Below the pieces are notes generated by a model that was not told where the DNA came from, searched no databases, and saw only the letters and a program-made list of their open reading frames with translations. The position numbers and the translations under genes were made by a program. Of a stretch of DNA of 64,000 nt, positions 46,441 through 48,016 are shown piece after piece (position 1 is the first letter of the stretch; each line of letters opens with the position of its first letter). Source of the DNA: the human T2T-CHM13v2.0 reference genome, Homo sapiens; the NCBI RefSeq assembly GCF_009914755.1, contig NC_060934.1; one strand, written 5' to 3'.

Positions 46441-46540
46441 CAGAAAATGTATCTTTTTAAAAGGTAATTGTGAGCTGTCTATAGGACCCTGCAAGCCACT
46501 ACCCAATTTTTGAAGCCATTCCTCCTTCTGTTCCACACAG

Positions 46541-48016
46541 GTTTCCACCGTGCACATTATGAAGAAAAGAAATGGAGGTGGGAGTTTAAATAACTATTCC
46601 TCCTCCATTCCACCGACTCCCAGCACCAGCCAGGAGGACCCTCAGTTCAGTGTTCCTCCCACTGCCAACACACCCACGCCCGTTTGCAAGCGGTCCATGC
46701 GCTGGTCCAACCTGTTTACATCTGAGAAAGGGAGTGACCCAGACAAAGAGAGGAAAGCCCCGGAGAATCATGCTGACACCATCGGGAGCGGCAGAGCCAT
46801 CCCCATTAAACAGGGCATGCTCTTAAAGCGAAGTGGGAAATGGCTGAAGACATGGAAAAAGAAATACGTCACCCTGTGTTCCAATGGCGTGCTCACCTAT
46901 TATTCAAGCTTAGGTGATTATATGAAGAATATTCATAAAAAAGAGATTGACCTTCAGACATCTACCATCAAAGTCCCAGGAAAGTGGCCATCCCTAGCCA
47001 CATCGGCCTGCGCACCCATCTCCAGCTCTAAAAGCAATGGCCTATCCAAGGACATGGACATCGGGCTGGGTGACTCCATATGCTTCAGCCCCAGTATCTC
47101 CAGCACCACCAGCCCCAAGCTCAACCCACCCCCCTCCCCTCATGCCAATAAAAAGAAACACCTAAAGAAGAAAAGCACCAACAACTTTATGATTGTGTCT
47201 GCCACTGGCCAAACGTGGCACTTTGAAGCCACGACGTATGAGGAGCGGGATGCATGGGTCCAAGCCATCCAGAGCCAGATCCTGGCCAGCCTGCAGTCAT
47301 GCGAGAGCAGTAAAAGCAAGTCCCAGCTGACCAGCCAGAGCGAGGCCATGGCCCTGCAGTCGATCCAAAACATGTGTGGGAACGCCCACTGTGTGGACTG
47401 TGAGACCCAGAATCCTAAGTGGGCCAGTTTGAACTTGGGAGTCCTCATGTGTATTGAATGCTCAGGTATCCACCGCAGTCTTGGCACCCGCCTTTCCCGT
47501 GTGCGATCTCTGGAGCTGGATGACTGGCCAGTTGAGCTCAGGAAGGTTATGTCATCTATTGGCAATGACCTAGCCAACAGCATCTGGGAAGGGAGCAGCC
47601 AGGGGCAGACAAAACCCTCAGAAAAGTCCACGAGGGAAGAGAAGGAACGGTGGATCCGTTCCAAATATGAGGAGAAGCTCTTTCTGGCCCCACTACCCTG
47701 CACTGAGCTGTCCCTGGGCCAGCAGCTGCTGCGGGCCACCGCTGATGAGGACCTGCAGACAGCCATCCTGCTGCTGGCACATGGCTCCCGTGAGGAGGTG
47801 AACGAGACCTGTGGGGAGGGAGACGGCTGCACGGCGCTCCATCTGGCCTGCCGCAAGGGGAATGTGGTCCTGGCGCAGCTCCTGATCTGGTACGGGGTGG
47901 ACGTCATGGCCCGAGATGCCCACGGGAACACAGCGCTGACCTACGCCCGGCAGGCCTCCAGCCAGGAGTGCATCAACGTGCTTCTGCAGTATGGCTGCCC
48001 CGACGAGTGCATGTAG
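46541..48016 (+). CDS. AGAP-family terminal exon: split PH domain, ArfGAP zinc finger and ankyrin repeats (AGAP1-derived retrocopy)
   Basis: 491-codon open frame; PH start [12 protein letters not shown]; ArfGAP motif CVDC-x16-CIEC-x4-R; ankyrin repeats GCTALHLAC and [11 protein letters not shown] ends at 48016. Confidence 0.96.

What the first reader, a model, noticed from the sequence alone, without database searches (positions are those of the whole stretch)
46472..46541. Splice acceptor carved out of former AGAP1 coding sequence
Seen: the 66 intronic nt before exon 8 (46475-46540) translate in the exon 8 frame as [21 protein letters not shown]. This matches the recalled AGAP1 stretch LSIGPCKSLPNSPSHSSVCSAQ. 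The acceptor CAG is the old Gln codon, and the polypyrimidine tract is the old Ser-Ser-Val-Cys-Ser codons. The retrocopy therefore begins at about 46472, upstream of the exon. Only the spliced-out part has gained a stop, which is a direct trace of exonisation.
Basis: partly seen in the sequence, partly recalled or inferred. Interest (0 to 1): 0.72.

Follow-up and report, generated by a model that had tools for sequence, protein, structure and literature searches.

The report
AGAP1 retrocopy supplies a recruited splice acceptor
The last exon of this AGAP13P gene copy starts at a splice site lying inside what was once AGAP1 coding sequence, a neat and real detail of a gene fusion (cyclin-like gene plus AGAP1 retrocopy) that is already in print.

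Summary
Confirmed.

AGAP1 homology starts at 46473, 36 nt inside a 128-nt AGAP1 exon. It crosses the acceptor 46540|46541 without a break, so Gln|Val is not a native AGAP1 junction. Ten AGAP1 exons spread over 328 kb lie collinear in 46473-49667.

Three paralogous cyclin-Y-like loci lack the insert. They show that host intron ends at 46474.

The AG and most of the pyrimidine tract were already present in AGAP1. One G>T at -15 lengthened the pyrimidine run from 7 to 11 in all 10 chr10 copies.

A chr9 processed pseudogene carries the cyclin exon joined to the AGAP part at exactly this junction. That is fossil evidence that the site was used.

The stop in the relic is only weak evidence on its own (expected 0.24 stops). 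The open 491-codon exon is the stronger signal (P about 0.013).

The fusion was published as CENTG2/CTGLF1 (Baertsch 2008). New here: no poly(A), no target-site duplication, microhomology at both junctions and about 1.85 kb of host intron missing.

The parts
45855..45906 (+). Last host (cyclin-Y-like) exon before the fusion. It ends in phase 0 (..TTT GCG|gtaagt) and supplies the donor.
   Evidence: The supplied annotation lists it as an exon. One search translates 45856-45906 as DADRSLSIPDEQLHSFA. Paralogous cyclin-like loci on chr10, chr19, chr2 and chr16 match it together with its flanks.
46134..46440 (-). Antisense Alu in the intron, flanked by an 18-nt target-site duplication (46116-46133 and 46441-46458). 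It is present in all 10 chr10 AGAP copies and absent from the three insert-free paralogs read (L064, L063, L059).
   Evidence: Sequence read. The insert-free paralogs read straight through ..cagaaaa(c/t)(a/g)tatcttttt aaaag.. with no Alu. All 10 copies match query positions 1-401 of window 46400-46800.
46459..46474 (+). Last 16 nt of host intron (aaaaggtaattgtgag) before the retrocopy. 46472-46474 is the 5' junction: host has cag, AGAP1 has cag, the window now has gag, giving 2-3 nt of microhomology.
   Evidence: The insert-free paralogs L064, L059 and L063 match window 46441-46474/46471 and then diverge (..aattgtcag|tagtatc..). AGAP1 reads ..gcagcag|ctgtcc.
46473..46540 (+). Relic of AGAP1 coding sequence left in the intron (57 of 68 nt identical to AGAP1). 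It holds the in-frame TGA (46511-46513), the pyrimidine run 46519-46529 with the G>T change at 46526 (-15), two CpG decays (46535, 46537) and the acceptor AG (46539-46540).
46541..48016 (+). Exonised AGAP1 coding sequence: 491 codons plus TAG. It covers the linker, split PH, ArfGAP and ankyrin parts. The annotated exon of NR_165819.1 ends early at 47166, 14 nt after an AATAAA (47147-47152) made by two substitutions.
   Evidence: ORF 46514-48016. PDB sequence matches to the centaurin-gamma-1 PH domain, ACAP1 ArfGAP and ankyrin repeats. AGAP1 exon-by-exon collinearity. AATAAA compared with AGAP1 AACAGA.
48017..49667 (+). Rest of the retrocopy, from the AGAP1 last exon and 3'UTR. Two later Alu blocks interrupt it (48355-48660 and 48741-49356). 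It ends at C2:236615376 inside the AGAP1 3'UTR with no poly(A). Relative to AGAP1, 905 nt are missing between 48010 and 48022.
49663..49668 (+). 3' junction between retrocopy and host, with TTC(C) microhomology. Host intron resumes here, about 1.85 kb downstream of where it stopped at 46474.
   Evidence: Alignment of window, two insert-free paralogs and the AGAP1 3'UTR. Coordinates.

Best explanation
A 5'- and 3'-truncated, intron-less cDNA copy of AGAP1 sits in sense orientation in an intron of a cyclin-Y-like host gene. It occupies window 46473-49667 and has been interrupted by later Alus.

The host donor at 45906 now splices to an AG that lay inside an AGAP1 exon, between the Gln and Val codons. 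The Ser-Ser-Val-Cys-Ser codons just upstream were already pyrimidine-rich and serve as the polypyrimidine tract.

The host exon ends in phase 0 and the AG falls between two AGAP1 codons. The fusion therefore reads the PH-ArfGAP-ankyrin part of AGAP1 in its original frame.

The first 68 nt of the retrocopy became intron. That stretch drifted (11 changes, one in-frame TGA) and gained one tract-improving G>T at -15.

Shown: the homology, both boundaries, the loss of introns, that the site is not a native AGAP1 junction, that all 10 paralogs share these features, and that the junction was used (annotation plus the chr9 fossil). Inferred: that the site was already usable at insertion, and which A is the branch point.
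For: 1. Homology and boundary. Window 46473-46557 matches C2:236287040-236287124 across the acceptor (E 3.6e-16). The AGAP1 exon runs from 36 nt upstream to 24 nt downstream of the cut and has its own AG and GT flanks. Its translation equals the recalled peptide.

2. Retrocopy nature. Ten AGAP1 exons lying between C2:236287040 and C2:236615376 (328 kb) are collinear and contiguous in the window.

3. Host boundary. In 3 of 3 insert-free paralogs examined (C10:38.24M, C10:43.30M, C19:30.50M) the host intron matches up to window 46471-46474 and then continues with unrelated sequence.

4. A largely preformed site. AGAP1 has 15 of 20 pyrimidines before its CAG, with a longest run of 7. The window has 16 of 20 with a run of 11. 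The eleven annotated acceptors of the window, this one included, have 9-19 of 20. The AG-free stretch of 23 nt is the same in both. The -15 G>T, the TGA and the CAG are shared by 10 of 10 chr10 copies; the base after the CAG is G in 9 of 10 and T in AGAP11.

5. Use of the junction. The supplied BestRefSeq model joins 45906 to 46541. On chr9, C9:85800245-85801234 carries 39 nt of the cyclin exon abutting the first base of the AGAP exon, followed by 878 nt of it. The 39 nt match at 30 of 39; none of the other 15,923 positions tested reached 25. The translation reads ..IFDERL*LFT|VSTVHISQTSNGGGSL.

6. Constraint on the exon. Nine of 10 copies keep an open frame from the acceptor to the shared stop (8 with 491 codons, AGAP11 with 516, one with a frameshift). 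A neutral simulation expects 4.3 stops, with P of none = 0.013.

7. In print. [quoted passage not shown]
Against: - No RNA data could be examined here. Present-day use of the site in this particular copy rests on the supplied annotation.
- AGAP13P is annotated as a pseudogene, and its model ends at 47166 inside the ORF.
- One expected AGAP1 segment (window 46815-46915) was not recovered on chr2 by the genome search. One search returned 11 matches, all chr10 or chr9.
- The insert lacks the poly(A) tail and target-site duplication of a classical retrocopy.
- The insert-free loci are paralogs, not the orthologous pre-insertion allele.
- No splice-site scoring model was available, so the strength of the site is only described, not scored.
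Confidence: 0.93

Rival explanations
1. The site was not usable at insertion. Later substitutions created it: the -15 G>T, the two CpG decays, and the four-substitution cluster that made TGA, which would be a new branch point.
For: The -15 G>T lengthens the uninterrupted pyrimidine run from 7 to 11 and is fixed in 10 of 10 copies. AGAP1's only yUnAy motif (CTAAT, A at -35) was lost. The only UnA motif left between -10 and -60 is the TGA, with its A at -28. Baertsch et al. allow both routes in general.
Against: The AG, the C at -3, the G at +1, 15 of 20 pyrimidines and the 23-nt AG-free zone were already present in AGAP1. A cluster of at least 4 changes in 5 nt is expected about 0.7 times in 1,426 aligned positions (P = 0.5), so the cluster needs no selection to explain it. 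The chr9 fossil lacks the intron and cannot date the changes.
Confidence: 0.3
2. The acceptor belongs to the host cyclin-like gene as a native or cryptic host site, and AGAP1 sequence only begins downstream of it.
For: None found. Host and AGAP1 both read CAG at the junction 46472-46474.
Against: Host homology in 3 of 3 insert-free paralogs stops at 46471-46474, 66 nt before the acceptor. The intervening 68 nt are 84% identical to AGAP1.
Confidence: 0.01
3. The AGAP part arose by DNA-level duplication of AGAP1, or of an older AGAP1 pseudogene, rather than directly from an mRNA.
For: There is no poly(A), no target-site duplication, and microhomology at both junctions. That pattern would also fit a template-switch or end-joining capture of a fragment of a pre-existing processed pseudogene.
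Against: At least 9 AGAP1 introns are precisely absent, so an mRNA intermediate existed at some stage. The other AGAP1 pseudogenes found are less similar to the window than AGAP1 itself is: chr1 76-87% and chr4 74%, against 84-93% for AGAP1. They are therefore not the source.
Confidence: 0.1
4. The resemblance of the 22 intronic codons to AGAP1 is chance.
For: None.
Against: 57 of 68 nt are identical, contiguous and in register with about 2.3 kb of further AGAP1 homology. The match had E 3.6e-16 against the whole genome.
Confidence: 0

Closest known systems
CENTG2/CTGLF1 (AGAP1/AGAP4) exon acquisition, Baertsch et al. 2008, BMC Genomics 9:466 (PMC2584115; passages read)
   Same: It is the same gene family and the same event: a cyclin gene receives PH, ArfGAP and ankyrin domains as a new 3' exon from a CENTG2 retrocopy. 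The event is present in apes and rhesus and absent in marmoset. [quoted passage not shown]
   Different: The passages I read give no base-level account for this gene. They do not mention the 68-nt relic, the position of the AG inside the AGAP1 exon, the -15 change, the junctions or the chr9 copy. I could not see Figure 1A-2 or the additional files, so I cannot say the relic is not drawn there.
AGAP core duplicon of chromosome 10 (Genome Res 2024;34:1487, PMC11534156; passages read)
   Same: It lists AGAP13P among 10 chr10 copies of about 22 kb that are 97.5-99.6% identical and specific to catarrhine primates. This agrees with the 10 copies found.
   Different: A term search of the main text found no 'retrotranspos', 'CCNY', 'intronless', 'acceptor' or 'fusion'. 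The paper does not discuss how the gene was built.
Endonuclease-independent (non-classical) L1-type insertions, Sen et al. 2007, NAR 35:3741 (PMC1920257; abstract read)
   Same: The abstract describes insertions without signs of endonuclease activity, associated with deletions of target DNA and suggesting a role in break repair; one section heading concerns microhomology between insert ends and flanking DNA. The AGAP1 insert here has no poly(A), no duplication, microhomology at both ends, and about 1.85 kb of host missing.
   Different: That study concerns L1 elements, not cellular cDNAs. Here the deletion is inferred from paralogs, and later loss of the tail cannot be excluded.
Other retrocopy-in-intron fusions such as owl-monkey TRIM5-CypA
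   Same: A cDNA lands in a host intron, is spliced to upstream host exons, and gives an in-frame chimeric protein.
   Different: As I recall it, there essentially the whole parental ORF is used. Here the site lies inside parental coding sequence, so part of the ORF became intron.

Membership tests
Processed retrocopy of AGAP1 | Parental introns precisely absent | tested here: met
   Ten AGAP1 exons spanning C2:236287040-236615376 are contiguous in window 46473-49667, so at least 9 introns are missing. One 101-nt segment (46815-46915) had no chr2 match.
Processed retrocopy of AGAP1 | 3' poly(A) tail at the parental polyadenylation site | tested here: not met
   Homology ends at 49667 = C2:236615376 inside the AGAP1 3'UTR. 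No A-run follows.
Processed retrocopy of AGAP1 | Target-site duplication flanking the insert | tested here: not met
   The insert-free paralogs show about 1.85 kb of host sequence between the two junction points instead of a duplication. There is only 2-4 nt of microhomology at each end.
Processed retrocopy of AGAP1 | Closer to AGAP1 than to AGAP2 or AGAP3 | tested here: met
   The chr2 exons match at 84-93%. The single matching exons on chr12 and chr7 match at 80% and 74%. I assigned these loci to AGAP2 and AGAP3 from the chromosome locations in Table 1 of PMC11534156.
Retrocopy exon acquisition (Type I of Baertsch et al.) | Insert lies in a host-gene intron in sense orientation and is spliced to a host exon | tested here: met
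   Host intron flanks both sides. The supplied annotation gives the junction 45906^46541. The chr9 processed copy preserves that junction.
Retrocopy exon acquisition (Type I of Baertsch et al.) | Parental reading frame continued from the host frame | tested here: met
   The host exon ends in phase 0. 46541 starts an AGAP1 codon, and 491 codons are open.
Canonical U2-type 3' splice site | YAG|G with an upstream polypyrimidine tract and an AG-free zone | tested here: met
   CAG|G, 16 of 20 pyrimidines, a run of 11, and 23 nt free of AG.
Canonical U2-type 3' splice site | Branch point 18-40 nt upstream | tested here: inconclusive
   The only UnA motif between -10 and -60 is the TGA, with its A at -28. 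No lariat data or predictor was available.

The most novel reading that the evidence does not exclude
The founding insertion of the whole chr10 AGAP4-14 family may not have been a classical L1 target-primed retrocopy. It may have been a poly(A)-less AGAP1 cDNA fragment captured by microhomology (CAG at the 5' end, TTC at the 3' end) at a break. That break would also have removed roughly 1.5-1.9 kb of the cyclin-like intron.

Within the relic, the in-frame TGA may not be mere decay. It may be the recruited branch point, being the only UnA motif in range (A at -28), and it would replace the AGAP1 CTAAT that was lost.
Probability: 0.35. Interest if true: 0.45.

Novelty: already known. Interest (0 to 1): 0.28.

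Why it matters
The chr10 AGAP copies form the core duplicon around which the unstable, disease-associated 10q11.22 region is built (PMC11534156). Knowing exactly how the gene was assembled explains why a half-cyclin, half-ArfGAP protein exists in catarrhine primates. The assembly steps are a cDNA fragment dropped into a cyclin-like intron, a pre-existing AG and pyrimidine-rich codons taken over as an acceptor, and an in-frame join.

It is a clean teaching example of a splice site fortuitously present in a retrocopy ORF. It adds base-level detail to a published case rather than a new principle.

The non-classical junctions and the chr9 fossil of the spliced chimeric mRNA are small additions that could help date and order the events.

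Tried and rejected
- **AGAP1 sequence upstream of 46473.** MAFFT first paired GCCCAGAA in the window with the same 8-mer in AGAP1 at nearly the same offset. The first three bases belong to the Alu end and the rest to its target-site duplication. The intervening bases match at chance level in the realignment, and the insert-free paralogs show this stretch is host intron. Rejected.
- **Upstream cyclin exons in the chr9 copy.** Exons 1-5 of the annotated transcript gave only chance hits. The copy is 5'-truncated within the last cyclin exon, and its AGAP part stops at window 47418, where unrelated sequence follows.
- **The missing host sequence elsewhere in the window.** The roughly 1.85 kb found in the paralogs between the two junction points has no low-copy match anywhere in the 64-kb window.
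- **Whether the four-substitution cluster that made TGA is unusual.** It is not (P = 0.5).
- **dN/dS of the relic.** With 21 codons it is too short to mean anything.
- **Splice-site scoring.** No MaxEnt-type score or branch-point predictor was available, so only descriptive counts are given.
- **PDB sequence search.** It holds no chain covering the relic peptide. It served only to name the domains of the exon.

Full report
**The observation**

Window 46475-46540 translates, in the frame of the exon that starts at 46541, as [21 protein letters not shown]. The window's own assembly could be searched. The query 46400-46800 found three consecutive AGAP1 exons on chr2:

| chr2 position | window position | identity |
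|---|---|---|
| C2:236287040-236287124 | 46473-46557 | 84%, E 3.6e-16 |
| C2:236288610-236288766 | 46563-46719 | 87% |
| C2:236297043-236297117 | 46726-46800 | 87% |

The first of these is a 128-nt exon (L016 1465-1592 = C2:236287004-236287131), bounded by ..ccaccag| and |gtacgt. From L016 1503 it translates LSIGPCKSLPNSPSHSSVCSAQVSAVHISQ.

The relic 46473-46540 is identical to AGAP1 at 57 of 68 positions. The new acceptor cut corresponds to L016 1568|1569. This is 104 nt into the AGAP1 exon and 24 nt before its donor. Gln|Val is therefore not a native AGAP1 junction. The retrocopy lacks the first 36 nt of that exon, so its 5' end is a truncation in mid-exon.

**What the whole thing is**

A second search and exon-by-exon BLAST placed ten AGAP1 exons collinear and contiguous in the window. 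On chr2 they lie between C2:236287040 and C2:236615376, a span of 328 kb. In the window they cover 46473-48010 (coding), then 48022-48354, 48661-48740 and 49357-49667 (last exon and 3'UTR).

The interruptions at 48355-48660 and 48741-49356 are Alu blocks. The AGAP1 coordinates on either side of each block overlap, as target-site duplications would.

One 101-nt stretch (46815-46915) found no chr2 partner. One search returned 11 matches, all on chr10 or chr9. By protein it belongs to the PH domain.

At least nine AGAP1 introns are thus precisely missing, so the insert is a processed copy. It is closer to the chr2 gene (84-93%) than to the single exons that matched on chr12 (80%) and chr7 (74%). 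These chromosomes are those given for AGAP1, AGAP2 and AGAP3 in Table 1 of PMC11534156.

**The host and the junctions**

The flanks of the insert match cyclin-Y-like loci elsewhere. Three of these loci, C10:38.24 Mb, C10:43.30 Mb and C19:30.50 Mb, lack both the Alu and the AGAP1 insert.

- In all three the host intron reads ..cagaaaa..tatcttttt aaaagataattgtcag and then continues with unrelated sequence.
- The window follows them to 46471-46474 and then switches to AGAP1.
- Host and AGAP1 both read CAG at the switch.
- At the other end the window leaves the AGAP1 3'UTR at 49667 and rejoins the host at a shared TTC(C).

There is no poly(A) and no target-site duplication. The paralogs carry about 1.85 kb between the two junction points. 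That sequence has no low-copy match anywhere in the 64-kb window.

This is the pattern described for non-classical, endonuclease-independent insertions that repair breaks (abstract of PMC1920257). However, the comparison loci are paralogs, and later loss of the tail cannot be excluded.

**The acceptor**

AGAP1 already reads ..CCATTCCTCCGTCTGTTCCGCGCAG|GTG. The window reads ..CCATTCCTCCTTCTGTTCCACACAG|GTT.

| Feature | AGAP1 site | Window site |
|---|---|---|
| Pyrimidines in the 20 nt before the CAG | 15 of 20 | 16 of 20 |
| Longest pyrimidine run | 7 | 11 |
| AG-free stretch upstream | 23 nt | 23 nt |

The window's site lies within the range of the eleven annotated acceptors of the window, itself included (9-19 of 20). 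The site was therefore largely preformed.

The single tract-improving change is G>T at 46526 (-15, the old Val codon). The changes at 46535 and 46537 are CpG transitions. The -15 T, the TGA and the CAG are shared by all 10 chr10 copies; the base after the CAG is G in nine and T in AGAP11.

The host exon 45855-45906 ends in phase 0, and 46541 starts an AGAP1 codon. The join therefore keeps the AGAP1 frame.

**Evidence that the junction is used**

The supplied BestRefSeq model NR_165819.1 joins 45906 to 46541.

Independently, chr9 carries a processed copy of the spliced chimera. C9:85800245-85800283 matches the last 39 nt of the cyclin exon at 30 of 39 positions. None of the other 15,923 positions tested on both strands of the 8-kb locus reached 25. 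This stretch abuts the first base of the AGAP exon without a gap. The AGAP exon then continues for 878 nt at 79% identity. The contiguous chr9 DNA translates ..IFDERL*LFT|VSTVHISQTSNGGGSLSDYSSS.

The chr9 copy lacks the 68-nt relic and the intron. The chr10 arrangement is therefore the source, and the chr9 copy derives from its mRNA.

**The stop codon argument**

Nine of 10 chr10 copies keep an open frame from the acceptor to the shared stop. Eight have 491 codons, AGAP11 has 516 and one has a frameshift.

I ran a neutral simulation on the AGAP1 sequence at the observed divergence (150 differences in 1,358 aligned sites):

- The exon is expected to gain 4.3 stops, and stays open in 1.3% of runs.
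- The 22 relic codons are expected to gain 0.24 stops, and gain at least one in 21% of runs.

Its weight comes from the open exon, not from the single TGA.

The TGA arose within a cluster of four changes in five bases (CTCCC to TTTGA). Such a cluster is expected by chance about 0.7 times in the 1,426 aligned positions (P = 0.5).

It is nevertheless the only UnA motif between -10 and -60 (A at -28). The CTAAT that AGAP1 has at -35 was lost. The TGA may therefore be the branch point. This is inference only.

**Comparison with what is known**

Baertsch et al. 2008 (PMC2584115, passages read) list CENTG2/CTGLF1 as a retrocopy that adds PH, ArfGAP and ankyrin domains to the C-terminus of a cyclin gene. 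They record it as present in apes and rhesus and absent in marmoset. [quoted passage not shown]

The 2024 paper on AGAP duplicons (PMC11534156) does not discuss how the gene was built.

The finding is thus a correct base-level dissection of a published fusion. My literature searches turned up no description of the relic, the junction microhomologies or the chr9 fossil. I could not see the figure or additional files of the 2008 paper.

**Verdict**

The kind and the case are already known. Interest is modest.

Noticed in passing
L047 3246-4235 (G000 C9:85800245-85801234): A processed pseudogene of the spliced cyclin-AGAP chimeric mRNA. It holds 39 nt of the cyclin exon joined exactly to the AGAP exon. 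It is 5'-truncated, and its AGAP part stops at the equivalent of window 47418, where unrelated sequence follows.
   Followed up: yes
window 46541-47418 compared with chr9 and AGAP1: Since the chr9 copy split off, the chr10 lineage has 58 private substitutions against 32 in the dead chr9 pseudogene, over 768 three-way aligned sites. The expressed duplicon copy has changed faster than a neutral pseudogene. Positive selection, a higher mutation rate in segmental duplications, or gene conversion were not told apart.
   Followed up: partly
window 48010-48022: Relative to the AGAP1 last exon, 905 nt (C2:236613758-236614662) are missing, and the family's stop codon (..CPDECM*/V*) lies at that deletion junction. 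The chr1 AGAP1 pseudogene keeps about 890 nt there.
   Followed up: partly
window 47147-47152: An AATAAA inside the coding sequence, made by two substitutions (AGAP1 has AACAGA). It lies 14 nt before the annotated transcript end at 47166. It may be a premature polyadenylation site, or the cDNA end may come from internal priming on the A-rich stretch.
   Followed up: partly
L030 (G000 C10:87.89 Mb, the AGAP11 copy): This copy has a 516-codon frame from the acceptor and keeps two AGAP1-like segments (..EALHMSANSD.. and ..LKDDGLSSTAEEEEEK..) that the other nine copies lack. It looks closest to the ancestral insert. Its first exon base is T instead of G, and its relic has a 1-nt deletion.
   Followed up: partly
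window 49668-50400: Eight of the 10 chr10 copies match only the first 420 nt of this downstream flank; the window copy and one other match all 733 nt. A duplicon boundary therefore lies near 50087, about 420 nt beyond the retrocopy. Downstream cyclin exons are not part of the repeated unit.
   Followed up: no
L012/L031/L035 (G000 C1:178.94 Mb) and L014 (C4:68.65 Mb): These are independent, older AGAP1 processed pseudogenes (74-87% identity). The chr1 copy extends further 5' across the upstream AGAP1 exon junction and served as a second witness for the ancestral bases at the acceptor.
   Followed up: partly
window 46150-46175: The antisense Alu about 370 nt upstream of the acceptor carries the usual T-run followed by ..ctttctgtag|cccag|g. 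This is the kind of site that is often exonised. Whether it competes with 46541 was not examined.
   Followed up: no
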